Below, piece after piece: positions 45,340 to 56,067 of a stretch of 56,421 bases of DNA. The notes beneath the pieces are model-generated. The model did no database searches, was not told where the DNA came from, and saw nothing but the letters and a program-made list of their open reading frames with translations. A program made the position numbers and the translations under genes. The first letter of the stretch is position 1. Each line of letters starts with the position of its first letter. Source of the DNA: an uncultured Bacilli bacterium (lineage in GTDB: Bacteria > Bacillota_I > Bacilli_A > RFN20 > CAG-826); the NCBI GenBank assembly GCA_944336335.1, contig CALVLC010000036.1, forward strand, positions 1 to 56,421, in the 5' to 3' direction.

Positions 45340-46614
45340 TTAATCAATTTCTTTTATAGGCAAATATGGAATTCCAAATTTTAAAACTTTTTTTCTAAGA
45401 TTGCTTTCTTTATTTGCATAATAGGATGATAAATAATTTCTTTTAAGTTCTGTAAGAGTTGAAATCGAAATATCACTTAGCCCGTTTTCTTTACAGGAAA
45501 AATAATGGTCTTTTTCGCGTTGCATTTCTTTTGGTAGAGAATCAAAAAGTGCGGATCCTATCATATAATCTAAGATTTTAATGTTAATTTGATCTAAATG
45601 CAAAGAAGAAATAAAATCAAAGTTTTCTAAAATCATTTCAACGGTTTCAATAGGAGAACCAATAATAAAATTACCAACTGTAAAAATGCCTTTAGTATTT
45701 GCATAAGTAATAATATCAATTATTTTTTCCTTTGAAATGTTTTTGTTATAAAATCTTAATACTTTTTCAGAAGAATTTTCTAATCCAAAACTAATAATTT
45801 TTACATTAGCATCGTAGGCTAAATCTAATAAATCAAAATCAATGTTTACTGTACTACTTAATGCGATATGCATATCATCAGAAATATTAAATTGTTTTAG
45901 CGCGTTTAAAATATTTTTCGCTCTATTTAAATCAAAAGTAAAATTATCATCTATAATCCAAACATTTTTTACACCCCTTTTTTTTAAATCAAGAAAATCT
46001 GAAATTATATAATCAAGCGAATGTGTTTTATATTGTGAATACCGCCCTTTTCTCTGACAAAAAGAACAGTTATTTAAACAACCTTGAGATGTTTGTATAA
46101 TGTTGGAAAAATTATTTAGTTTATAAAAAGGAATTTGATTTAATAAATCTCTATCAGGAAGGGGTAAGTCATCATATCTTATAATGTCAGAAAAATTGTT
46201 GTTTCCAATGAAATTACCTATAATTTTACAGATATTAAATCTTGGATCTGACTTACAAGTAAAATCGGCATAAGGTATATCTTCTTTTTTTGTTGCACAT
46301 AAATATCCAAACGCAATTACATTAGCATTTGTTGATTTCTTAATCTTACAAATTAAATCATAACCAGAATAAATGTTTTCTGATCTTTTAAGCGAAAAAG
46401 AATCAAAATCAACGAGCACAAAATCTATTGACTTAGAATTAATAAATTCAACTATTGTTCCATCATCAATTTCTTGGCATGATAAATCAAAAAAATAATT
46501 GTCAGATTGGAATGTTTTTTTTAGAATAGCAGATAAATAAGTAATATTAATAGAATACCCGAAACGGAAATGCTTTTTTTCGGTAGGTTTTGGATATATA
46601 AATAAACATTTCAT
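45340..46614 (-). CDS. B12-binding-type radical SAM protein (putative class B methyltransferase)
   Basis: N-terminal Rossmann-like domain (LFIYP..ITYLSAIL); QTSQGCLNNCSFC; IDDNF; SFGLENSSE; GNFIIGSPIET. Confidence 0.82.
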   Translation of the reverse strand: MKCLFIYPKPTEKKHFRFGYSINITYLSAILKKTFQSDNYFFDLSCQEIDDGTIVEFINSKSIDFVLVDFDSFSLKRSENIYSGYDLICKIKKSTNANVIAFGYLCATKKEDIPYADFTCKSDPRFNICKIIGNFIGNNNFSDIIRYDDLPLPDRDLLNQIPFYKLNNFSNIIQTSQGCLNNCSFCQRKGRYSQYKTHSLDYIISDFLDLKKRGVKNVWIIDDNFTFDLNRAKNILNALKQFNISDDMHIALSSTVNIDFDLLDLAYDANVKIISFGLENSSEKVLRFYNKNISKEKIIDIITYANTKGIFTVGNFIIGSPIETVEMILENFDFISSLHLDQINIKILDYMIGSALFDSLPKEMQREKDHYFSCKENGLSDISISTLTELKRNYLSSYYANKESNLRKKVLKFGIPYLPIKEID

Positions 46615-47390
46615 TTTTTCTCAACCTCGATCAACGCTCTTAGACCCCATGCTCCTCCGTCTTCTATCTCATGGTAAGGCCATAATCCATTAGTAATTTG
46701 AGTATTAACTAAAAAGTTATAGGCCTTCCTAATAGGCGAATCATAGTCAATATTTAAATATTCAATCAGAGCAATAATAGCTATTCCTGTGCAGTAAACG
46801 TTCGAACCTACAGGGTGCCCTTTCCAAGGCGCAAATCCTCCATTATCTTCTTGTTGTGTTAAAAGCCACAAAAGTGTATCATGTACAATTTTTTCTTTGC
46901 GCAAGGTCGGTTTTTTTGAAGCAGCCATTAAAAAATAAGCGGCTTTATAAGTAAGAGAATTTTTTTCGGACTCCCACAATTTTTTAAGTTCATTATATTT
47001 TTCTTCACTTCTTAACTCAGGAATCAAATAAAGCAAAATTCCAGTTACAGGAATTCTAGCAATATCCCTTTTTGTTCTTCCCCGAATTAAATTTTCTTTT
47101 TGAGATTTGAGCCGCTCAATTGCCTTTAATCTATTTTGTTCAAATTCTTCGAAATGAGAAAGAAAATATATTGTCCATATAGTATCAGTGTTGCCAACAA
47201 AACCTCCGTCATCTCTTTGCGATGAAACCACTTTTTCAATAAAAGCTTTTGGAATTGATTTAGTAGACATCCCGGCTAACAACAATTGAGAAAATAACTT
47301 GATCTGTCTCCCTAATTCTAAATCTTTCTTTCTCATTTCTTGTGTCATTTTATATAAACACATAAAAGCTTTATCGCTATAAACACTCAT
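46611..47390 (-). CDS. Prenyltransferase/squalene-oxidase-repeat (alpha/alpha barrel) protein
   Basis: QW-type repeats: VSSQRDDGGF, WLLTQQEDNGGF, FLVNTQITNGLW; AIE[CGG]LKSQ. Confidence 0.78.
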   Translation of the reverse strand: MSVYSDKAFMCLYKMTQEMRKKDLELGRQIKLFSQLLLAGMSTKSIPKAFIEKVVSSQRDDGGFVGNTDTIWTIYFLSHFEEFEQNRLKAIERLKSQKENLIRGRTKRDIARIPVTGILLYLIPELRSEEKYNELKKLWESEKNSLTYKAAYFLMAASKKPTLRKEKIVHDTLLWLLTQQEDNGGFAPWKGHPVGSNVYCTGIAIIALIEYLNIDYDSPIRKAYNFLVNTQITNGLWPYHEIEDGGAWGLRALIEVEKK

Positions 47391-48243
47391 AAAAATTAGA
47401 TTCCTTATTTAAAAAAATATCATTAATATCAGTAATATCCAGGAGCCACATAACAAATCTATCAATTCCAAAACCAAAACCTGCTTTTGGTTCTATATTG
47501 TTTTTAGCTGCATCTAAAAACCAACCCATCTTATCGGCAAACTTTAAAAAAGTAAATTTTTTTAAATAAAACTCGTAAGACGTTTCTCTTACTGAATATT
47601 CCACTATCTCACCAATGCGAGGGAAAATTAAATTTCCAGAAAAACCCTTTTTTGCTCTCCACGAAAACGATGTCGGTAGATTAGCCAAAAAAATAGGAAT
47701 TTTTGTTTTTTTACATAAAATATTAGAAACTTCATCAACATTGCCGCGCGAATCTCCAAGCAATTTATCCACCTTTAAAAAATCATAAACGGGGAAAAAA
47801 TTTTTAAAAATTTCCTTTTTATTAATAATAGTTATTTGATTACTTTCTAAATAATTATTAAATTTTTGTATCAAAAAATTTATAAAATGAAATAATAAAT
47901 TTTCAACTTCTATTAAAGTCCCGCAATTCCATTCAACCTCAAGTAAATGGAACTCAGATAAATGTGTTTCATCATTTAAATCATTTCTAAAAGCATGTGT
48001 AACTGTATATATATTCCCAAAAGTCGAAGATAAAGCAGAAAGTTTTAAAGAATTCGATGGTGTCAAAAATAGTGAGTTATTTTTTCCAAAATAAATTGTG
48101 TTTTTAAGGTTATCTACATATTTTTTTTGAACTATGTTTGTATCAACAAAAACAAAATTTTCGTTTTTAAAAAATTCATGAATATATAAAATAACATTTG
48201 AAAGAATCACAAAATAACAATCCTTTTTATTCAACTTTTCCAT
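47377..48243 (-). CDS. Class II aaRS (AsnRS/AspRS-like) catalytic-domain-only paralogue
   Basis: Motif 1 region (HEFFKNENFVFVDT), motif 2 AFRND..HLSEFHLLEVE, motif 3 GFGFGIDRFVMWL; 288 aa with no anticodon-binding OB fold. Confidence 0.85.
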   Translation of the reverse strand: MEKLNKKDCYFVILSNVILYIHEFFKNENFVFVDTNIVQKKYVDNLKNTIYFGKNNSLFLTPSNSLKLSALSSTFGNIYTVTHAFRNDLNDETHLSEFHLLEVEWNCGTLIEVENLLFHFINFLIQKFNNYLESNQITIINKKEIFKNFFPVYDFLKVDKLLGDSRGNVDEVSNILCKKTKIPIFLANLPTSFSWRAKKGFSGNLIFPRIGEIVEYSVRETSYEFYLKKFTFLKFADKMGWFLDAAKNNIEPKAGFGFGIDRFVMWLLDITDINDIFLNKESNFYECL

Positions 48244-49420
48244 AAGTCCAATTCAAAATCCTTGTGCCAAATGACATTTCAAATCCAAAAGAAGTAAAAA
48301 GTCTTATTATTTTTTCATTGTTTGAAAAAGTCTTAGCAATTATATTTGGAAAAATATTACAAAAAAATTCCAAAGCAAATTTAGAAATACCTTTTCCTCT
48401 TTCTTCAGGGAATATGTATATTTCCTCTAATACATGAATATTATGTAATCTTCCACTTTCTCTCATATAACCTACTAGTTTATCTTTTTCTAATATTGCA
48501 AAAGTATGCTTACATGAATTTAAATCTTTTAAAATAGAGCCTCTTTTATCATTAAATGATAAAAACTTTTTATCAATCTCGCTCATTTCTAATAGTTTCT
48601 TCTTTAATATATTTAAATAACAGGGCTTCATTATAACAACGGAGATTTTTGGCAAAGGCTTTTGATCTAAAAAAAGTTTCTTTGAAGTATTATAAAAAAT
48701 ATCTTGTAAAGTACCATTGTCAAAAAAAGAACAAAAAGACTTTATTTCTTCACGATAAGTATATCCTTTCGTAAAATAAATTTTTCCGAAAGGATAATCT
48801 GTACCAAACAAAATCCTGTTAGAGCCAACTATTTTAATTGCATCTAAAATAGTTTGATAATTTCCAACAGTCGACGTCTCAAAATAAACGTTATCGTAGT
48901 TTTTTAGTTTCTTTACATTTTCTAAAACCATATCACTTTCATAAATATGCCCTCTACCCATATGAGCTAAAATGATATCTAATTTAGGTGCAACTCTCAG
49001 TATTTTTTTGATTTGCTTTGGCTTATCAAGAAATGCCGCGTGTATAATAAGTGGTCTTTTATAATACTCTAAAATTTTATAATACAAATAAAGAGAACTT
49101 GAGGGTATCTTTTCGTAGACTACATGGTATTTAGCGCCTTTGAATCCGTTAAAAATATTTTCAACCAAAAAATCATCAAATCTTACAATTGGTAAAATTC
49201 TACCATTAGAATTTATCATAGCCGAAAGCAAGTATTCATTATTTTTATTAGAATCATATCCCATGTCAGGAATCGGTAATCCACAACAAAAATCAACACC
49301 ATTATCATCCATTATTTTTAAAAATGAAGGATAATCATTGTTTAAATTATAATGAAAATTGCTCTCCGAAATTTTGAAATCTTCTAAGCCAAAATGAACA
49401 TGACTATCAATTATTTTCAT
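48227..49420 (-). CDS. Amidohydrolase_2-family metallohydrolase fused to a C-terminal GNAT-like domain
   Basis: IIDSHVH, IIHA, ILAHMG, LFGTDYPF; C-terminal IYIFPEERGKGIS acetyl-CoA motif. Confidence 0.82.
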   Translation of the reverse strand: MKIIDSHVHFGLEDFKISESNFHYNLNNDYPSFLKIMDDNGVDFCCGLPIPDMGYDSNKNNEYLLSAMINSNGRILPIVRFDDFLVENIFNGFKGAKYHVVYEKIPSSSLYLYYKILEYYKRPLIIHAAFLDKPKQIKKILRVAPKLDIILAHMGRGHIYESDMVLENVKKLKNYDNVYFETSTVGNYQTILDAIKIVGSNRILFGTDYPFGKIYFTKGYTYREEIKSFCSFFDNGTLQDIFYNTSKKLFLDQKPLPKISVVIMKPCYLNILKKKLLEMSEIDKKFLSFNDKRGSILKDLNSCKHTFAILEKDKLVGYMRESGRLHNIHVLEEIYIFPEERGKGISKFALEFFCNIFPNIIAKTFSNNEKIIRLFTSFGFEMSFGTRILNWTYGKVE

Positions 49421-49700
49421 CTATTTCTACTAAAAATATAATTTTCTTTTGCAATGCTTCGGAATAAAACAATAATATATCGTCTTTTAAAGTGGTTTTT
49501 TCCACATCAAAAATTTTTGTTAACTCATTTACAATATCATCAATATTTCTTTTTCCATCAGCATTTTCAAGCATTTTAAATGACACTAAGTTTAATCTAT
49601 ACTGATTCCCATCATTCACATTTAAAGCCCGAAAAGAATTGTTTACACTTTTTAGAATAACATCATCATTCAACTTTAAAATTGTTCTTCCATCCAACAT
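49407..49700 (-). CDS. PqqD-family RiPP recognition element
   Basis: 97 aa; GNQYRLNLVSFKMLENADGKRNIDDIVNELTKIFDV..DILLF pattern; GGAGG RBS inside the upstream gene. Confidence 0.87.
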   Translation of the reverse strand: MLDGRTILKLNDDVILKSVNNSFRALNVNDGNQYRLNLVSFKMLENADGKRNIDDIVNELTKIFDVEKTTLKDDILLFYSEALQKKIIFLVEIDENN

Positions 49701-50713
49701 TGAGGATCCTCCGCTAAATAATCATTTGTTAAAGCAAAAGCTACAGCACGGCATCCACCACATTTGCTAATATTTTTGCAATTATGGCACTTACCTTTTA
49801 AATTATTTTTATCTCTAATATCCCATAAGATTTTACTTGAATACCAAGTTTTAAAAATTCCATCAGTAAAAATATTGCCAATAGGTATTTCAAGTCTACG
49901 GCAAGGTAATAAAGTACCATCACACAAAATTGCTAAACAAGTAAAGCCAACAGGGCAAAACCCGCCGACTTTATTATCAAAAGAATTTTTTGACAAATTC
50001 GCCCATAATGGTCTAGTTCTTCTAATTGCTATTTCGTTAGAAAGTTTTTCAGCTTCTAAATTAATTTGTTCATAAATGCGATGTATTTCATCACTAGAAA
50101 TAATATCTTCATTAGCGCTATGCCCACACGGAGTAACTCTTTCTAAAGAAATATAATCAATATTCTCTTTAATGGCTAAACTAATAAAATTAAAAATGTC
50201 ATTTTTATTTTTATTAGTAATTGTAAACATGCTAGATACTTTGAAGTTATATTTTTTTAATAACCTAATACCATCAATAGCCTTATCAAAATTACCTTCG
50301 CCACGCGTAGCATCATGTACATGTTGTGTGCCACCATCAAGAGAGACCTGAATTTCATCGAGTTTATTATATTTCAAAAGTTTTTTGCATATTTCATCAT
50401 CAATTAAAGTTCCGTTAGTAAGGATATGGATAGAACAAATTCTATCTTGCTTATCAAGATAATCAAGCAAAGCAAAAAGAGATTTGCTCATGAAAGGTTC
50501 GCCGCCAGTAAGTGAAATTCTTCCAAACATGTTCCATTTATTCAAAGCTTCAATAATTTTATTAGCAATTTCAATCAACTTTTCAAAAGGTAACTCAAAA
50601 AAATTGTAATCTCCCTGATAACAATGACTACACCTTAAATTACAATAATTTAAAAAATGCCATTGAAAATAAAATTCATTGGCAGAATTTCTTTTATTCT
50701 GTTTATTTTCCAT
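49676..50713 (-). CDS. Radical SAM/SPASM-domain peptide maturase
   Basis: CNLRCSHC, LTGGEP, TNGTL, SLDG; full SPASM CPVGFTCLAILCDGTLLPC..CHNCKNISKCGGC..DPQC. Confidence 0.92.
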   Translation of the reverse strand: MENKQNKRNSANEFYFQWHFLNYCNLRCSHCYQGDYNFFELPFEKLIEIANKIIEALNKWNMFGRISLTGGEPFMSKSLFALLDYLDKQDRICSIHILTNGTLIDDEICKKLLKYNKLDEIQVSLDGGTQHVHDATRGEGNFDKAIDGIRLLKKYNFKVSSMFTITNKNKNDIFNFISLAIKENIDYISLERVTPCGHSANEDIISSDEIHRIYEQINLEAEKLSNEIAIRRTRPLWANLSKNSFDNKVGGFCPVGFTCLAILCDGTLLPCRRLEIPIGNIFTDGIFKTWYSSKILWDIRDKNNLKGKCHNCKNISKCGGCRAVAFALTNDYLAEDPQCWMEEQF

Positions 50714-50741: not shown

Positions 50742-50885
50742 TTAGTTACAGTTACAGTTTGAGCAGCCAAAACACCAATGACCATTATTAAATTCGTCCC
50801 AAACTTCCTTTGTGAAAACCATGTTTTCTTCTACTAAAAGAATTGGTTTTTCATAAGTAATTTTATTATCCAATTTTTTTTCCAT
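50742..50885 (-). CDS. Putative RiPP precursor, 47 aa: MEKKLDNKITYEKPILLVEENMVFTKEVWDEFNNGHWCFGCSNCNCN (absent from the ORF track)
   Basis: AAGGAGG RBS 8 nt before ATG 50885; YxxP leader motif; Cys/Trp/Asn-rich C-terminus; stop 28 nt before the rSAM/SPASM start. Confidence 0.88.
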   Translation of the reverse strand: MEKKLDNKITYEKPILLVEENMVFTKEVWDEFNNGHWCFGCSNCNCN

Positions 50886-51139: not shown

Positions 51140-52558
51140 CTATTTTAATCGCCAAGATAATTCGCCATCTGCCATTAAAAGCTCTTCTCGTATTGCATCA
51201 TAATATTTTGTAACAACATAATCATCAAAGCGTCTAGCTTCAGAAAGGTATCTTAATGCTGAGTCTTTATTAACATCAACTCCTTCACCATAATAATAAC
51301 GTAAAGCCTTAAATTTATAGACTCTTGAATCTCCTCTAACATCAGCCAAAGAGAAAAAGTGTTCCGCTCTCTCATAATCTTGTTCTACGCCTAAACCATA
51401 ATAATGACAAACACCTAAACAATAGAGAGAATCTACATTATATTTAGCACTACCTTCTATAAAATACTTCACAGCTTCATCATATTTTTTTAATGAGTAA
51501 TAAAATCTACCTATAAGTGAGGCCTGACTCGGATAGGGATATCTTTTATAACCATAAATTAATAAATCACAAGCTTCTTCAACTCCTTCTCTATCTCCTA
51601 TTCCATGATCTAAATACAATTTCAAAATACTTTCGTATAAATTTTCATAATAGTGGTTTCCTACAAGATTATAACGTCTAATTAAAGCAAAACACGTTTT
51701 TGCCAAAGTAGTTGTTTGAAAATAGTCATGTTTCTTTAATAGCCAAAGAAAATCTACTAAATAATCTAAACCACCAATCTCAATTGCTTTTAAATAATAA
51801 GAAATAGCTTGGTTAATATCTACTTTTGGACCATAAAGATATTGGTAAGAATAAATTTCACCAAGTCTTTCGTATGCTTTTGCAGATCCTATAGAACTAT
51901 ATTTTTTCGCCAGTTCCAATTCAGCTGGTATATTCCTTTTATTATAAGTCTTTGAGTATTCACATTCTTGTTGAAAACGCTTATCTAAATCGGTTAGTTC
52001 AGTTCTACGAATGTAATTAGGTAATTCAATCTTAAAATCTAATTTTTTGATATCTTCACTCTTATTAGAAAAATTTGCGTCACATGTTTTTGAGTCTGAT
52101 TTAATTCTTTCAAAATAATAATCAAGTATCTTATCTTCTTCATTAAGATAATGCTTTTCTTCGTTTGGCTTTGGAACAACGATAGTAGAAAAATTAATAA
52201 GATTCTCCTTTGAATGATCTTCAGTAATATTTATACCATTGAAAAAACTCAATAAATTTTCTTCACTGCCATAAAGAGCCTTAACAAACCACTTTAATCC
52301 TTCATGTGCAAACTTTTCATCCATTAAGTAATTTTCTTTTACGTCATAAACAATACTTTGAAGATCTTCTTTAGATTTTATTGAGCAAACAGCTTTTAAA
52401 ATATCATCTTCACAAAATATTTTTAATATTCTTAATTCTTTTCTTCTATCAGGAAGAAAGTCGCTAAATAATGAAAATAGTCTTTTTCCATCATCAAAAA
52501 TATCATCAGAATATTGTTCTTTAATTTTTTTAATAATCTCAATGACATAATCATCCAT
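51140..52558 (-). CDS. Sel1-like repeat protein
   Basis: LYCLGVCHYYGLGVEQDYERA, YYYGEGVDVNKDSA, AYERLGEIYSY..GPKVDINQAISYY. Confidence 0.85.
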   Translation of the reverse strand: MDDYVIEIIKKIKEQYSDDIFDDGKRLFSLFSDFLPDRRKELRILKIFCEDDILKAVCSIKSKEDLQSIVYDVKENYLMDEKFAHEGLKWFVKALYGSEENLLSFFNGINITEDHSKENLINFSTIVVPKPNEEKHYLNEEDKILDYYFERIKSDSKTCDANFSNKSEDIKKLDFKIELPNYIRRTELTDLDKRFQQECEYSKTYNKRNIPAELELAKKYSSIGSAKAYERLGEIYSYQYLYGPKVDINQAISYYLKAIEIGGLDYLVDFLWLLKKHDYFQTTTLAKTCFALIRRYNLVGNHYYENLYESILKLYLDHGIGDREGVEEACDLLIYGYKRYPYPSQASLIGRFYYSLKKYDEAVKYFIEGSAKYNVDSLYCLGVCHYYGLGVEQDYERAEHFFSLADVRGDSRVYKFKALRYYYGEGVDVNKDSALRYLSEARRFDDYVVTKYYDAIREELLMADGELSWRLK

Positions 52559-52656
52559 AATGTATTCCTCTAAAAAATAAAAATAAATGAAGTTTTGCGA
52601 CTTAATTGAAAAAATTTAAGACTAATCAGAAAATTAAAACTGATTCAAAGTCACCA

Positions 52657-53955
52657 TTATTTCTTTTTCGTCAAAACCAAATATTTCTTTTCTAATCTTG
52701 CTTTTGATTTCTCTAAACCATCATAAACTTTTTTATATTCAAAATATTCCTTCTTAGCATTCTTAAATACAATTGAATTCTTTTCTCTTTCAGTGGCTAA
52801 TTCTTTATATTTATGATCGAATTCATCATATGTACTCAAAAGAAAACTTCTAATTAAATCACTGAAAAAAGTATTTCTTTTTTTGTAATCTTTCTTTAAG
52901 TCAGAAAATTGATTCTTCGTTTCATCAAATTTTTCTGAAGTAGCATCAAGTTTATTCTTAGCTTCTAAATACTTGTTTTCCAAAAAAGATAACTTACGAT
53001 TCATTGAATTTAGCTTTTCGCTTATTCGATTAATTTCTTGTTTGCATTTAAGTTCTTCTTTTTTGCTTTGATAAATAGCAAGCAATTTTTTGTCGATAGA
53101 TTTACTAACAATTCCTACAACGCTAATATCATCTTTACTACCATTTACACTTAAATAATCAAGATTAGTAATTAAATTACTTTGCAAATCCTCATTATTT
53201 TTGTAAGAATTTAGCAAAAGTTCTATTAAGTCACTGTAAAAATTACTTGTTGATTCTAACGATGAAAATGAATCTTCAACACCATCTGTCCCCATTAAAC
53301 AAGCAACTATATTTTCTTTGCATTCAATTAAAACATGTCTCATTTCATCTAAAGCGTTTTTGTCAGACATTGATGTTGTAACATTAGCAACACAGTTCTT
53401 ATCAATAGGCATTGGATCAAAACTATTACCTTTTTCATCGAAAATAAATATATGCCCATCGCCTTGTTGAATTAAAATTAAATAGCCATCAATTAATAAT
53501 CCACCAAGAAGAGTTGTACCATAAGCTTTAATAATCTCATCATTTGTTAAGCCTTTAGTTGTTTCTATTTTAAACTTAACAATTTCATCCTCACTTATTT
53601 GGTTATTAAAATAATGGTTAGTTACATTTTCAGTCCACCTATTTAAAATTGAAAGCTTTAATTTATAGAAGAAATCTAACTCTTTTTTCTTGTCATTGAA
53701 CAACGTTTCTAAAAACGTCAAATCAACGTCATTAACAATGGATCTTAAAGTTTCAAGCAATACTTCGCATGCAATTTTTGAGCCAAATGCACTTCGAAAA
53801 CATCTTCTATCACCATGTCCATCAGCAACTGCAAAGATTAAAAACTTACCATCACTATCACGATAAGATAAAGAATAATCTTGGCATGGTAAACCTTTTC
53901 TTTTATGCGAGTTTCCTAAAACTGTTTGATTAAATATCAAATAATTTGAAATCAT
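52657..53955 (-). CDS. PP2C-like phosphatase (TerY-P type) with C-terminal coiled coil
   Basis: GNSHKRKGLPCQD, AVADGHG, MGTDGV, KDDISV. Confidence 0.88.
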   Translation of the reverse strand: MISNYLIFNQTVLGNSHKRKGLPCQDYSLSYRDSDGKFLIFAVADGHGDRRCFRSAFGSKIACEVLLETLRSIVNDVDLTFLETLFNDKKKELDFFYKLKLSILNRWTENVTNHYFNNQISEDEIVKFKIETTKGLTNDEIIKAYGTTLLGGLLIDGYLILIQQGDGHIFIFDEKGNSFDPMPIDKNCVANVTTSMSDKNALDEMRHVLIECKENIVACLMGTDGVEDSFSSLESTSNFYSDLIELLLNSYKNNEDLQSNLITNLDYLSVNGSKDDISVVGIVSKSIDKKLLAIYQSKKEELKCKQEINRISEKLNSMNRKLSFLENKYLEAKNKLDATSEKFDETKNQFSDLKKDYKKRNTFFSDLIRSFLLSTYDEFDHKYKELATEREKNSIVFKNAKKEYFEYKKVYDGLEKSKARLEKKYLVLTKKK

Positions 53956-53959
53956 TTAA

Positions 53960-54748
53960 TTACCAATTACTTTCATCTAAATCAATAATAGTGTAATCAC
54001 TTGAATTATTATCAGTCTTCTTTGTTTCAGAAGATGAACTTTTATTTAAAGTAACACCTTTACAAGGGAGCATTTGCATAGTTTGATTAATAATCTCTAC
54101 TGCATTATTTGTATCAGAACTTGTTCTGCTCTTACTATTAACCATTGAAGATGTGATTGAAGCAACTTTAATTAAAGCTTTCAAGGTATCGTTATCATGC
54201 ACACTTATAACTGCTTCGCTATTTCCAACAACTCTAGCTAATGCTTCTTGATCAGCGTCTTCTCCGACTGCAATTCCAATTTTAGTTGCATGTCTAAACC
54301 AAGTATTATTTTTATTAGCATTTTTTAAAATATTAATATACGAATCAGTAGGATGACCATCAGTTAAAAATAAAATAACAGGAATACAGAAACCAACTTC
54401 ACTTTTAAGAAGTTCACTTCTTGAAAGTTTTTTATCTAATTCACTAATAGCATTACCTAAGTCGGTTGTCCCGCCCGCTACAAGATCGGTCCAAACAAAA
54501 TCTTCTAAATCTTCAAGAGTGTTTTCGCTAGTAATCCATCTTGATCCAGTCGAAAAAGCTAATGCAGCAATTTTTACCTGGGCATCTGGATTCTTTTCAG
54601 AAATATCTTTTAAAACATCTACTGTTTCATGCATTGCTTCATTAACTGCAGCAATCTTTTCTCCAGACATACTTCCAGAAGTATCTAAAACGTAAATTAT
54701 TGGTAAAACTTTCTTTACCATTTCAGTTGTATCGATTATATTTGGCAT
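53960..54748 (-). CDS. TerY-like von Willebrand factor A domain protein
   Basis: VLDTSGSM MIDAS, GGTTDLG, FLTDGHPTD; likely ATG at 54748 after GAGGAGG. Confidence 0.88.
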   Translation of the reverse strand: MPNIIDTTEMVKKVLPIIYVLDTSGSMSGEKIAAVNEAMHETVDVLKDISEKNPDAQVKIAALAFSTGSRWITSENTLEDLEDFVWTDLVAGGTTDLGNAISELDKKLSRSELLKSEVGFCIPVILFLTDGHPTDSYINILKNANKNNTWFRHATKIGIAVGEDADQEALARVVGNSEAVISVHDNDTLKALIKVASITSSMVNSKSRTSSDTNNAVEIINQTMQMLPCKGVTLNKSSSSETKKTDNNSSDYTIIDLDESNW

Positions 54749-54765
54749 AACTTCCTCCTCCTTTG

Positions 54766-56067
54766 TCAAATAATTTTTATTTCTTTATCAAAAACAATAA
54801 ATTTTATACCTGTTAAAACTGGGACAAGTTCATTTGGTTTAACCATTCTAACTTGCCCTGAAGTAGTTATTGCTTTTAATTCTTTTCCCATTTCATTTTT
54901 TAGACATAAAACTTTTTTACCATTACTAATTACATAAACACTATGCAAAATAGGATTAAGGGCTTCAGTATCATTACAAGAACCAAGTTGACAACGATAA
55001 AGCCAAGTTCCTCTAGCAATTGTTAGAGAATATTCTGGTAACTTTAATTTATGTTTGACGTTATAAATTCGGCCGCACTTTTCACATTTAGTATCACTTG
55101 CATCGTGAATAAATATTTCATTTCCGCAATCGCATTTTACAATTTCACTTTCAAATCTAGTTAAAACTTTAAGCCAGTCTGTTTCTCTTAAACGTTTACT
55201 TGGGTTTAAAATAGCTTCTCTTGAAAATGATTTTTTAAAAGCATCTTTAATATAATCAGGCATATATTTCCAGCGTAGAGCAACATTAGGTTGAAGTCGA
55301 TCAACCGGAGCATTACTTCTATCATTTTCATCATAGATGAAAAGGGCATTGTTTCCATAGATTTGTTCAGCAAATGCTGGAGTCATACAAGGTATACTTA
55401 CCCATCTTTTCCCTTCTAAAGGATGATTATTACATAAGATGATAAATAATATTATCGCTAATGAAAAACGATCAGATTGTGTGTTAGGCAAAACTTTATT
55501 GTGACCTGAAACAATTTCAGGAGCCATATAGCGTGGCTTACCAATAATACCCATATTTGTATTATTAGGTGCGACGTTATCGTTATCACAAATTAAAACA
55601 TCGCCAGTATCGGGATTAATAAAGAAATTGCCATCGTTTAAATCTTGATTACTATAACCTTTGTTGTGCAAAATTCTAAAAGCTGAAGTAATTTTTAAAC
55701 AAACTTCTATTGCTGCTTTAAATGAAGGAAATTTTACGCCACGAGCAATAATAAATTCAGATAACTCATGATATTCTTTTGGTCTTAATTTCATGACATA
55801 ACCGAAACTATTATTTATAGTTGTTGTTAAAGCTTCGGGCCATAAAAAATTCTTATCTGGTGAGCCATTAGAGATGTTGTTCTTTAAATTTTCATAAAAT
55901 TTCTTTTTATTTGTTCCAAAAGTCCTATACCATTTAAGAGCTTTTCTTTCACCTTTATATTCAACTTCATAAACATCACCTTGCCCACCACTTGCAAGGA
56001 ATCTTATGATTTTAATATTATTGCCATCGATTGATTTTAATATATCGCCTGGTTTAAATTCAGTCAT
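54766..56067 (-). CDS. Ser/Thr protein kinase (TerY-P triad type) with C-terminal zinc-ribbon-like motif
   Basis: LASGGQGDVY, ALKWY, QDLNDGNFF, CDNDN, YMAPE, DRFSLA; CDCG..CEKCG. Confidence 0.88.
   Translation of the reverse strand: MTEFKPGDILKSIDGNNIKIIRFLASGGQGDVYEVEYKGERKALKWYRTFGTNKKKFYENLKNNISNGSPDKNFLWPEALTTTINNSFGYVMKLRPKEYHELSEFIIARGVKFPSFKAAIEVCLKITSAFRILHNKGYSNQDLNDGNFFINPDTGDVLICDNDNVAPNNTNMGIIGKPRYMAPEIVSGHNKVLPNTQSDRFSLAIILFIILCNNHPLEGKRWVSIPCMTPAFAEQIYGNNALFIYDENDRSNAPVDRLQPNVALRWKYMPDYIKDAFKKSFSREAILNPSKRLRETDWLKVLTRFESEIVKCDCGNEIFIHDASDTKCEKCGRIYNVKHKLKLPEYSLTIARGTWLYRCQLGSCNDTEALNPILHSVYVISNGKKVLCLKNEMGKELKAITTSGQVRMVKPNELVPVLTGIKFIVFDKEIKII

What the first reader, a model, noticed from the sequence alone, without database searches (positions are those of the whole stretch)
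47377..48243. Anticodon-less AsnRS-like enzyme inside a peptide-modification operon
Seen: class II motifs 1-3 are present, but the protein is only 288 aa and has no OB-fold. Known: truncated class IIb paralogues do non-translational chemistry; EpmA/GenX ligates beta-lysine to EF-P, and archaeal AsnRS2 amidates Asp to Asn. Inference: here it may adenylate an amino acid or a peptide carboxylate to form an amide on the precursor, a ligation route distinct from tRNA-dependent PEARL enzymes.
Basis: partly seen in the sequence, partly recalled or inferred. Interest (0 to 1): 0.76.

Follow-up and report, generated by a model that had tools for sequence, protein, structure and literature searches.

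The report
AsnRS-derived ligase in a peptide-maturation cassette
This gene is a shortened, remodelled copy of the enzyme that normally loads asparagine onto tRNA; it belongs to a distinct family that occurs only inside an unstudied operon modifying a tiny, almost invariant cysteine/asparagine-rich peptide, where it most likely performs an ATP-driven ligation rather than translation.

Summary
Window 47377-48243, minus strand, encodes a 288-aa class IIb aaRS catalytic core with no OB domain (Pfam tRNA-synt_2, E 8e-22). The fold is closest to AsnRS.

It is not the housekeeping enzyme. The genome holds full AsnRS, AspRS and LysRS elsewhere, and 60 relatives lack this paralogue.

It overlaps both neighbours in a seven-gene cassette: precursor (…WCFGCSNCNCN), rSAM/SPASM, PqqD, amidohydrolase-GNAT, aaRS-like, alpha/alpha-toroid, B12-rSAM. 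I recovered more than 45 diverged copies of the cassette.

All cassette-linked aaRS-like proteins form one clade (99/93), sister to true AsnRS:
- basal members keep an intact OB fold;
- a "long" clade has a decaying OB fold;
- the "short" clade, which holds the window, has lost it.

ATP/adenylation residues are invariant. The residues that bind the alpha-amine of asparagine are gone, and new invariant pocket residues (W195, N204, E215) appear.

The enzyme is accessory. It is present in about 25 of 35 informative loci, and a methyltransferase fills its slot in three. It always follows the GNAT domain or gene, and precedes the toroid in all but two rearranged loci.

Best reading: a tRNA-independent adenylate-forming tailoring ligase, possibly acting on the invariant C-terminal Asn. 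The chemistry is untested. I found no published description.

The parts
47377..48243 (-). AsnRS-derived class IIb catalytic-core protein, 288 aa, no OB domain (the finding)
   Evidence: Translation. Pfam PF00152, 78 bits. AF2 plus Foldseek give AsnRS as best match. It sits in the cassette clade of the trees.
47932..47994 (-). Motif 2 region (residues 84-104: AFRNDLNDETHLSEFHLLEVE), with R86, D88, H94, E97, F98, E102, E104
   Evidence: R86, H94, E97, F98 and E102 are invariant in 21 family members and in both cassette clades. Human AsnRS R322 and E324 play these roles (PMC10831071).
47446..47484 (-). Motif 3 (residues 254-266: AGFGFGIDRFVMW), with G257, G259, R262
   Evidence: Invariant in the family.
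48084..48125 (-). Remodelled lid and alpha-amine region (about residues 40-53, continuing to S63-N64-S65). The AsnRS 'EGG' Glu is absent, the SxQ Gln is replaced by Ser65, and the model has low confidence over residues 40-61.
   Evidence: The role of the Glu comes from PMC10831071.
50742..50885 (-). Precursor peptide, 47 aa, ending HWCFGCSNCNCN
   Evidence: The core WCFGC[ST]NCNCN is invariant in 25 precursors from metagenome loci and in the further precursor of L067.
49676..50713 (-). Radical SAM/SPASM maturase
   Evidence: Pfam Radical_SAM plus SPASM. The NCBIfam hits (WgkB, ACGX, SbtM type) are all below cut-off.
49407..49700 (-). PqqD-family peptide chaperone (RRE)
   Evidence: PF05402, 36.7 bits.
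48227..49420 (-). Amidohydrolase_2 fused to a C-terminal GNAT acetyltransferase domain. The GNAT part always lies directly upstream of the aaRS-like gene.
   Evidence: PF04909 plus PF00583. The GNAT is a separate gene in L067.
46611..47390 (-). Alpha/alpha-toroid protein (squalene-cyclase or prenyltransferase-like repeats). Where the aaRS-like gene is present, this gene lies directly downstream of it, except in the rearranged loci L050 and L070.
45340..46614 (-). B12-binding radical SAM enzyme, the last gene of the cassette

Best explanation
The protein is a descendant of asparaginyl-tRNA synthetase that was captured once by a peptide-maturation cassette. In the lineage of this window it has lost its anticodon-binding OB domain. 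It most likely still binds ATP and forms an acyl-adenylate, but not with free L-asparagine bound as in AsnRS. The adenylation residues are kept: motif 2 Arg, motif 3 Arg, the Mg-binding Glu and the adenine-stacking Phe. It probably works without tRNA, as an accessory tailoring ligase on the conserved peptide ...WCFGC[S/T]NCNCN, in partnership with the GNAT domain encoded just upstream and the toroid protein encoded just downstream.

The sub-reading I favour is that the old asparagine pocket accepts the peptide's invariant C-terminal Asn. The side-chain ligands E102 and R219 are kept, the alpha-amine ligands are lost, and the lid loop is ill-defined. The enzyme would adenylate the C-terminal carboxylate, which could then be capped (amide), cyclised (attack by a Cys thiol or an amine) or turned into a succinimide.

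Shown: ancestry, architecture, conserved and lost residues, gene linkage, accessory status. Inferred: retention of adenylation activity, tRNA independence, the substrate and the product.
For: Class IIb core only. Fold and profile are closest to AsnRS: Foldseek TM 0.74-0.80; the family profile scores 175 bits on AsnRS 1x54, 112-121 on archaeal-type AspRS, 94 on AS-AR and 49 on EpmA.

The genome holds full AsnRS, AspRS and LysRS elsewhere. The paralogue is absent from 60 relatives.

Cassette-linked proteins form one clade (UFBoot/SH-aLRT 99/93), sister to AsnRS. The basal member P0020 has an intact OB domain and sits in a cassette. The long and short clades each have 100/98 support.

Invariant across clades: R86, H94, E97, F98, E102, E212, G257, G259, R262; R219 in 94%.

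Lost or replaced relative to AsnRS: the 'EGG' Glu that contacts the Asn moiety in human AsnRS (E279; PMC10831071), the SxQ Gln (now Ala or Ser), D376 (now N204), G387 (now E215) and F361 (now W195).

Gene order GNAT, aaRS-like, toroid holds in about 31 loci, with overlapping junctions.

The C-terminal Asn is invariant in all 26 precursors recovered from loci (25, one more).

In three loci a SAM methyltransferase occupies the same slot. I read this as possibly another carboxylate-capping enzyme; that is an inference.

There are no tRNA genes in the window or in 14 long loci, and no LanB/PEARL, Fem or CDPS-type aa-tRNA user in the cassette.
Against: No biochemical data exist, and substrate and product are inferred only.

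Basal and long family members keep an OB domain, and the long clade keeps an AsnRS-like motif-2 loop (FRAExSxT). A tRNA-linked ancestral role is therefore plausible.

Cassettes with an identical core peptide work without the enzyme. It is therefore not needed to make the core product, and its target need not be the peptide at all.

It is the fastest-evolving enzyme of the cassette: 25-37% identity to the window protein in the other loci (59% and 41% in the two closest relatives), against 43-54% for the toroid.

The window protein departs from family consensus at the motif-1 Pro (N36), at E88 (now D) and at G216 (now Y).

The family-wide D-to-N change at a presumed Mg ligand could impair adenylation.

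The roles assigned to E102, R219, the SxQ Gln and the Mg ligands come from my recollection of AspRS and AsnRS structures, not from a tool.
Confidence: 0.5

Rival explanations
1. EpmA/MshC-like ligase. The enzyme adenylates a free acid, either an Asn/Asp-like amino acid or an N-blocked form such as N-acetyl-Asn made by the adjacent GNAT. It then transfers the acid, without tRNA, onto a nucleophile of the modified peptide (Lys, the N-terminus, Ser/Thr or Cys). Alternatively the GNAT acetylates the newly added residue, as MshD does after MshC.
For: An OB-less class IIb core ligating onto a protein has a precedent in EpmA (weak HMM similarity). GNAT and aaRS-like genes are strictly adjacent, whether fused or separate. 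The Asn/Asp side-chain ligands E102 and R219 are kept. The enzyme is accessory, as tailoring additions usually are.
Against: Both alpha-amine ligands of class IIb enzymes are lost throughout the clade. That is unexpected for a free alpha-amino acid, though compatible with an N-acyl acid. No precursor residue co-varies with presence of the enzyme.
Confidence: 0.2
2. A tRNA-dependent role. The enzyme charges tRNA(Asn), or its acceptor end, to feed an aminoacyl-tRNA-using step. The GNAT-fold domain might act as a Fem or L/F-transferase-like enzyme. Alternatively the enzyme loads a non-canonical acyl group on tRNA.
For: The clade begins with a full-length enzyme whose OB fold is intact (P0020, PF01336). 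The long clade keeps an AsnRS-like motif-2 loop and partial OB signatures. GNAT folds are used by aa-tRNA transferases (general knowledge).
Against: The window protein and the whole short clade lack the OB domain, and their motif-2 loop has diverged. The GNAT matches acetyl-CoA-type Pfam families, not Fem or LFT families. The amino-acid pocket lacks alpha-amine ligands. No tRNA gene lies near any cassette. The housekeeping AsnRS is present in the genome.
Confidence: 0.1
3. AsnA / archaeal AsnRS2-type asparagine synthetase. It would make free Asn from Asp, ATP and NH3, for example to supply the Asn-rich peptide.
For: OB-less AsnRS/AspRS-like cores of about 294 aa are known to do this (PDB 3p8t and 1nnh match the family profile). 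NCBIfam AS-A models are hit by all 21 members tested.
Against: All scores are far below cut-off (49.9 against 309 bits) and lower than for AsnRS. The gene is locked between peptide-modifying genes with overlapping junctions in dozens of loci. The clade derives from AsnRS separately from the solved AS-AR proteins. A metabolic supply gene would not be expected to be specific to this cassette.
Confidence: 0.05
4. A non-catalytic role: a scaffold or peptide-binding subunit for the toroid/GNAT complex, or a decoy or immunity protein that binds an aminoacyl-adenylate-like product.
For: It is the fastest-evolving and a dispensable member of the cassette. The window protein deviates at several family positions. 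aaRS copies in biosynthetic clusters often confer resistance (general knowledge).
Against: The motif 2 and 3 arginines, the Mg-binding Glu, the adenine-stacking Phe and the new pocket residues (W195, N204, E215) are invariant over sequences only about 25% identical. This argues for selection on a working active site. A resistance aaRS must be a complete synthetase, and this one is not.
Confidence: 0.08

Closest known systems
Asparaginyl-tRNA synthetase (class IIb; e.g. P. horikoshii 1x54, T. thermophilus 5zg8)
   Same: The catalytic-domain fold is the same (Foldseek TM 0.74-0.80), and AsnRS gives the best profile match (175 bits). Motif 2 and 3 residues are shared, as are the Glu and Arg at the side-chain pocket (E102, R219). 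It is the sister clade in the tree.
   Different: No OB anticodon-binding domain. The alpha-amine ligands ('EGG' Glu, SxQ Gln) are lost. New invariant W195, N204 and E215 appear. NCBIfam scores are far below cut-off (84.6 against 414). It occurs only in a peptide-maturation cassette, and the genome has its own AsnRS.
EpmA / PoxA / GenX (EF-P beta-lysine ligase)
   Same: An OB-less class IIb catalytic core that ligates an activated acid onto a protein instead of tRNA. The length is similar.
   Different: EpmA derives from LysRS and this protein from AsnRS. TIGR00462 scores 51.7 against a cut-off of 286.9, and PDB 3g1z scores only 49 bits with the family profile. There is no EF-P or EpmB context.
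Archaeal AsnRS2 / AS-AR and bacterial AsnA (asparagine synthetase A)
   Same: A truncated AspRS/AsnRS-like core that uses an adenylate and an amine nucleophile (ammonia) to make an amide.
   Different: The profile score is lower than for AsnRS (94 against 175 bits) and the NCBIfam score is far below cut-off. The genomic role differs: these are free-standing metabolic genes, not cassette-locked ones.
MshC + MshD of mycothiol biosynthesis
   Same: An aaRS paralogue acting as a tRNA-independent ligase, paired with a GNAT acetyltransferase. The logic matches the strict GNAT/aaRS-like adjacency seen here.
   Different: MshC is a class I CysRS paralogue with a small-molecule acceptor. The resemblance is recalled from the literature and was not tested here.
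MccB (microcin C synthetase) and MccE GNAT
   Same: If the favoured sub-reading holds, this is adenylation of a ribosomal peptide's C-terminal Asn carboxylate. In microcin C that step proceeds through a succinimide. A GNAT is associated in both systems.
   Different: MccB has an E1/ThiF fold, not a class II aaRS fold. The precursor, the other enzymes and probably the product are unrelated. This is an analogy only.
PEARL enzymes (LanB-like peptide aminoacyl-tRNA ligases)
   Same: They modify the C-terminus of a ribosomal scaffold peptide using amino-acid activation chemistry.
   Different: PEARLs have a LanB-type fold and need aminoacyl-tRNA. No such domain occurs in this cassette.

Membership tests
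Canonical asparagine--tRNA ligase (TIGR00457 / NF003037) | N-terminal OB-fold anticodon-binding domain | tested here: not met
   The protein is 288 aa. PF00152 covers residues 11-277, and there is no PF01336 hit. Housekeeping AsnRS in the same genome is 460-470 aa.
Canonical asparagine--tRNA ligase (TIGR00457 / NF003037) | Score above the curated family cut-off | tested here: not met
   84.6 bits against a cut-off of 414, and 77.2 against 342.6.
Canonical asparagine--tRNA ligase (TIGR00457 / NF003037) | Class II motifs 2 and 3 with catalytic arginines | tested here: met
   R86 and R262 are invariant.
Canonical asparagine--tRNA ligase (TIGR00457 / NF003037) | Ligands for the substrate alpha-amine ('EGG' Glu = human E279; Gln of the SxQ motif) | tested here: not met
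   Both are 100% conserved in 31 full-length AsnRS. They are absent or replaced (Ala/Ser) in the short and long cassette clades and in the window protein. The role of the Glu comes from PMC10831071; the role of the Gln is recalled.
Canonical asparagine--tRNA ligase (TIGR00457 / NF003037) | Groups with housekeeping AsnRS in a phylogeny | tested here: not met
   It lies in a separate clade (99/93), sister to the AsnRS clade (92/86).
Canonical asparagine--tRNA ligase (TIGR00457 / NF003037) | Charges tRNA(Asn) with Asn | not testable with these tools
   This needs an aminoacylation assay.
EpmA/PoxA/GenX | LysRS-derived core scoring above the TIGR00462 / NF006828 cut-offs | tested here: not met
   51.7 against 286.9, and 51.1 against 264. 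The tree places the protein with AsnRS, not LysRS.
EpmA/PoxA/GenX | OB-less class IIb catalytic core | tested here: met
EpmA/PoxA/GenX | Functional link to EF-P / EpmB | tested here: not met
   All neighbours are peptide-maturation genes.
Archaeal AsnRS2 / AS-AR (asparagine synthetase A, PRK06462 models) | Score above the curated cut-offs, and closest solved relative is AS-AR | tested here: not met
   49.9 against 309 bits. The family profile scores 94 bits on 3p8t and 1nnh against 175 bits on AsnRS 1x54. AS-AR sequences could not be placed in the tree because none was obtainable.
Archaeal AsnRS2 / AS-AR (asparagine synthetase A, PRK06462 models) | Converts Asp + ATP + NH3 to Asn | not testable with these tools
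   This needs an enzyme assay or a complementation test.
Cassette-linked AsnRS-derived family (unnamed; this report) | Membership of the clade, and the signature SW[RT]A..., NL[IL]xP, GE[LIV]xE[GC][SC]xR | tested here: met
   The window protein has SWRAK, NLIFP and GEIVEYSVR, and sits in the short clade with 100/98 support.
Cassette-linked AsnRS-derived family (unnamed; this report) | The gene lies between the GNAT (domain or gene) and the toroid gene of the WCFGC[ST]NCNCN cassette | tested here: met
   Seen in the window and in about 31 loci.
PEARL (LanB-like peptide aminoacyl-tRNA ligase) | LanB-type glutamylation/ligase fold | tested here: not met
   Only class II aaRS Pfam families are hit. 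No lantibiotic-dehydratase domain occurs in the cassette.

The most novel reading that the evidence does not exclude
A class II aaRS fold has been converted into a peptide-modifying enzyme. The former asparagine pocket would bind the ribosomal peptide's own invariant C-terminal Asn and adenylate its carboxylate. This would be a fold-independent re-invention of the first step of microcin C synthetase MccB. The outcome would be a capped, cyclised (thiolactone or lactam, with help from the toroid protein) or succinimide/adenylate-type C-terminus. The adjacent GNAT would serve as partner or self-protection. The tree would then record, step by step, how a tRNA synthetase lost tRNA: OB intact, then OB decaying, then OB gone.
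Probability: 0.2. Interest if true: 0.9.

Novelty: new variant of a known kind. Interest (0 to 1): 0.72.

Why it matters
Non-translational aaRS paralogues are few, and each one opened a field: EpmA, AsnA/AS-AR, HisZ, MshC, the aa:carrier-protein ligases. This would be the first AsnRS-derived family dedicated to maturing a ribosomal peptide. Its living intermediates (OB intact, OB decaying, OB lost) make the transition from tRNA synthetase to tailoring ligase directly testable. The host cassette has an almost invariant 11-residue Cys/Asn core, no conserved exporter or protease, and enzymes that evolve faster than the peptide. It matches no described RiPP class I could find, and it may encode a cofactor-like or signalling molecule in gut and sediment bacteria.

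Tried and rejected
1. The search for related loci with the 21- and 7-sequence aaRS-like alignments failed because no stretch was conserved enough.

2. The genome-contig scan with the 3-sequence alignment returned only two unrelated AsnRS-type loci. The toroid protein proved the better bait.

3. Seven full-text literature searches found no description of this family or cassette. One of them yielded the human AsnRS paper used here for residue roles. I also found no open paper giving the AspRS or AsnRS residue roles that I recall from memory.

4. I could not obtain EpmA or AS-AR sequences for the tree. Their relation rests on HMM and PDB profile scores only. Three candidate outliers turned out to be AsnRS-like (P0145, P0020) or archaeal-type AspRS (P0036), not AS-AR.

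6. I looked for a precursor feature that tracks presence of the enzyme. There is none: the core is invariant.

7. The idea of a resistance copy of AsnRS is rejected, because the protein is incomplete and its amino-acid pocket is remodelled.

8. An earlier scan note hinted that the enzyme is interchangeable with an asparagine-synthetase-type gene. I saw no AsnB-type gene in 45 loci. The only occupant of the slot other than the aaRS-like gene was a SAM methyltransferase.

9. The promoter and terminator scan was uninformative in this AT-rich DNA: 42 sites against 41 expected.
Full report
OBSERVATION. The ORF at 47377-48243 is real and lies on the minus strand (ATG at 48243; 288 aa). Pfam tRNA-synt_2 matches residues 11-277 to profile positions 22-302 of 308 (78.1 bits, E 8e-22), so the protein is a class IIb catalytic core and nothing else. 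NCBIfam ranks AsnRS first (84.6 bits against a cut-off of 414). EpmA, archaeal asparagine synthetase A, AspRS and LysRS follow, all far below their cut-offs. An AlphaFold2 model built on 21 family members (pLDDT 83.8, pTM 0.86) is confident except for residues 40-61 and the last six. Foldseek against the PDB returns AsnRS catalytic domains first (3m4p, 6pqh, 1x54, 2xgt; TM 0.74-0.80, E about 1e-18), then AspRS and LysRS. Motifs 2 and 3 are intact. Motif 1 is degenerate: its Pro is Asn36.

NOT THE HOUSEKEEPING ENZYME. The window's genome encodes full-length AspRS (588 aa), LysRS (506 aa) and AsnRS (460 aa) on other contigs. None of 60 relatives in the same genus or order has the paralogue; their best hits are their own 460-aa AsnRS at about 30% identity. 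The neighbouring toroid gene is absent from 398 other sampled genomes of the phylum. The cassette was therefore most likely acquired horizontally.

CONTEXT. On the minus strand the genes run as follows:
- a 47-aa precursor (50742-50885, ...EVWDEFNNGHWCFGCSNCNCN);
- a radical SAM/SPASM enzyme;
- a PqqD chaperone;
- an Amidohydro_2-GNAT fusion;
- the aaRS-like gene;
- a 259-aa alpha/alpha-toroid protein with weak squalene-cyclase and prenyltransferase repeats;
- a B12-binding radical SAM enzyme.

The aaRS-like gene overlaps its upstream neighbour by 17 nt and its downstream neighbour by 14 nt. The kinase, vWA, PP2C and Sel1 genes further upstream look like a separate module.

THE FAMILY AND ITS CASSETTE. 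A word-indexed search of 5.8 billion proteins found only one relative (59% identity). An exhaustive HMMER search of 1.84 billion cluster representatives found about 20 OB-less relatives of 290-320 aa and many proteins of 350-415 aa. I looked up ten family members: P0003-7, P0012, P0020, P0031, P0048 and the window's own protein. Nine lie in the canonical cassette order; the tenth, P0031 (L070), lies in a rearranged cassette directly after the B12-rSAM gene.

Using the toroid protein as bait, I recovered 43 more metagenome loci and annotated them with the window's seven proteins. The aaRS-like gene lies directly upstream of the toroid gene in about 31 loci. Among about 35 loci where the junction can be read, about 25 have it and about 10 lack it. 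L023, L024, L027, L047, L048, L059 and L062 go straight from the amidohydrolase(-GNAT) gene to the toroid gene. In L051-L053 a 280-aa class I SAM methyltransferase fills the slot. In L050 the gene sits elsewhere in the cluster.

Where the GNAT is not fused to the amidohydrolase, it is a separate gene placed immediately before the aaRS-like gene (L067). The aaRS-like gene therefore always directly follows a GNAT domain or gene, although some cassettes carry the GNAT without it. Apart from HTH and transposase genes, the only recurrent extra genes are a TM/TPR-like protein, an LVIVD beta-propeller, a second rSAM and the methyltransferase. No exporter, protease or AsnB-type enzyme recurs.

The precursor core WCFGC[S/T]NCNCN-COOH is invariant in all 25 precursors recovered from metagenome loci and in the further precursor of L067, whether or not the aaRS-like gene is present. 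The peptide is much better conserved than its enzymes, and the aaRS-like protein evolves fastest of all. In the other loci it shares 25-37% identity with the window protein (59% and 41% in the two closest relatives), against 43-54% for the toroid and 47-61% for the rSAM/SPASM enzyme.

PHYLOGENY. I built a 119-row quick tree and a 55-row careful tree on the catalytic domain only. Both put all cassette-linked proteins in one clade (UFBoot/SH-aLRT 99/93), sister to the bona fide AsnRS clade (92/86), with AspRS and LysRS outside.

Within the clade there are three parts.
- A basal group (P0020, P0021, P0041) includes a 414-aa protein with an intact OB fold: a PF01336 hit and a typical GWV..RNLGGIIFL...AQVV sequence.
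- A 'long' clade of 350-404 aa (100/98) follows. Its OB domain matches PF01336 only weakly, at 19-28 bits against a cut-off of 27.
- A 'short' clade of 288-336 aa (100/98) has no OB domain.

The window protein sits in the short clade on a long branch with P0003 and P0004.

The simplest history is one capture of a complete AsnRS by the cassette, followed by decay and then loss of the anticodon-binding domain. P0145 is another OB-less AsnRS-like protein just outside the clade. It keeps the SGQ motif and lies in a different context.

ACTIVE SITE. I compared 31 full-length AsnRS with the short (31) and long (32) clades, column by column.

Kept in all:
- the motif 2 Arg (R86);
- the following acidic residue (E in 90%; D88 here);
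- H94, E97, F98, E102;
- the GE Glu (E212);
- R219 (94%; Lys in the two closest relatives);
- W241;
- motif 3 (G257, G259, R262).

In human AsnRS the motif 2 Arg (R322) contacts the phosphate and E324 contacts the adenylate (PMC10831071).

Lost or replaced throughout the cassette clade, including the basal OB-bearing member:
- the 'EGG' Glu, which is human E279 and binds the asparagine moiety and orders the lid loop (same spacing to the motif 2 Arg in 1x54);
- the Gln of S-x-Q, now Ala or Ser (S65 here);
- AsnRS E208, K359 and R418.

New family-invariant residues:
- W195 (Phe in AsnRS);
- N204 (Asp in AsnRS; from memory of class IIb structures, a Mg ligand);
- E215 (Gly in AsnRS).

From memory of AspRS and AsnRS structures, E102 and R219 are the residues that hold the Asp/Asn side chain, and the lost Glu and Gln hold the alpha-ammonium group.

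The picture is an intact ATP/adenylate site, a retained Asn-type side-chain site, a lost alpha-amine site, and a lid (residues 40-61) that the model cannot place.

MECHANISM. I conclude that the protein is a working adenylate-forming enzyme whose substrate is not free L-Asn bound as in AsnRS. For this OB-less member, tRNA is probably not involved. The OB domain is gone, the motif-2 loop has diverged from AsnRS (the long clade still reads FRAExSxT), no tRNA gene lies in the window or in 14 long loci, and the cassette holds no known aminoacyl-tRNA-using fold.

The sub-reading I favour is that the invariant C-terminal Asn of the peptide enters the old Asn pocket, with its acylated nitrogen pointing through the space left by the lost ligands. 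Its carboxylate is then adenylated for capping, cyclisation or succinimide formation. This would be chemically parallel to the first step of MccB and would fit a methyltransferase occupying the same slot. It is inference only.

The main rival is an EpmA/MshC-type ligation of a free, perhaps N-acetylated, acid onto the peptide. The GNAT adjacency fits that reading equally well. A tRNA-dependent role cannot be excluded for the OB-bearing relatives. Because cassettes with the same core peptide exist without the gene, the step is a tailoring option, not part of making the core product.

KNOWN OR NEW. The protein fails the membership tests for canonical AsnRS, EpmA and AS-AR (see the table). It works 'like' the known non-translational aaRS paralogues. 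Literature searches found no description. An earlier agent of this scan reached a similar view from another genome's copy (the L019 genome). That is not independent evidence. My additions are the OB-bearing basal and long members, the tree, the residue table, the GNAT adjacency and the methyltransferase slot. I rate it a new variant of a known kind (a non-translational aaRS paralogue), with high interest because the domain-loss series and the conserved peptide make the question experimentally tractable.

LIMITS. There is no biochemistry. EpmA and AS-AR are not in the tree. Several residue roles are recalled rather than looked up. Locus counts include near-duplicates (for example L023 and L024) and some contigs with frameshifts (L033, L039).

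Noticed in passing
window 51140-56067 (minus strand): Directly upstream of the peptide cassette lie a Ser/Thr kinase (433 aa), a vWA protein (269 aa), a PP2C phosphatase with a coiled-coil tail (432 aa) and a Sel1/TPR protein (472 aa). They look like a separate signalling or conflict module. They travel with the cassette in the identical Logan contig L002 but are not part of other cassettes.
   Followed up: partly
L051:736-1532, L052:6326-7162, L053:9131-9970: In three cassette variants, a 280-aa class I SAM methyltransferase (Pfam Methyltransf_25/31/11) occupies the slot between the amidohydrolase and the toroid gene, in place of the aaRS-like gene. These variants have a short amidohydrolase without a GNAT domain.
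   Followed up: partly
L067:4749-5177 and L067:5202-6446: In the basal cassette variant the GNAT is a stand-alone 142-aa gene immediately upstream of a 414-aa aaRS-like gene with an intact OB fold. A 516-aa TM/TPR protein separates it from the amidohydrolase.
   Followed up: partly
L033:1960-2885; L039:728-2781: The aaRS-like gene in L033, and the toroid and B12-rSAM genes in L039, are each split into two ORFs. These are either pseudogenes or assembly frameshifts.
   Followed up: no
L044:2619-6229: One long-type cassette carries two precursor copies, each preceded by an extra PqqD-like ORF.
   Followed up: no
L019:12975-14631: In the GCA_963627065.1 copy, a saccharopine-dehydrogenase-like gene and a 77-aa protein with four CxxC pairs (DnaJ-type zinc-finger look) lie between the B12-rSAM gene and a precursor placed at the 3' end of the cluster.
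   Followed up: no
window 46611-47390 (toroid protein); alignment A4: The toroid protein has invariant H191, C199, H239, E240, E242 and D243 (motifs HP..N.YCT and YHE.EDG). This could be a metal site like those of prenyltransferase beta subunits or LanC cyclases, suited to activating the peptide's cysteines.
   Followed up: no
L071:415-1365, L072:85-1035: P0145 is a different OB-less AsnRS-like protein (316 aa) that keeps the SGQ motif. It lies just outside the cassette clade and sits next to an unknown 171-aa gene. It may represent another uncharacterised truncated AsnRS paralogue family.
   Followed up: no
L048, L050, L052, L053 (e.g. L053:4197-6777): Long-type and GNAT-less cassettes add an LVIVD-repeat beta-propeller (about 470 aa) and a TM/TPR-like protein (390-510 aa). 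Some add a second radical SAM enzyme fused to a GNAT-like domain.
   Followed up: partly
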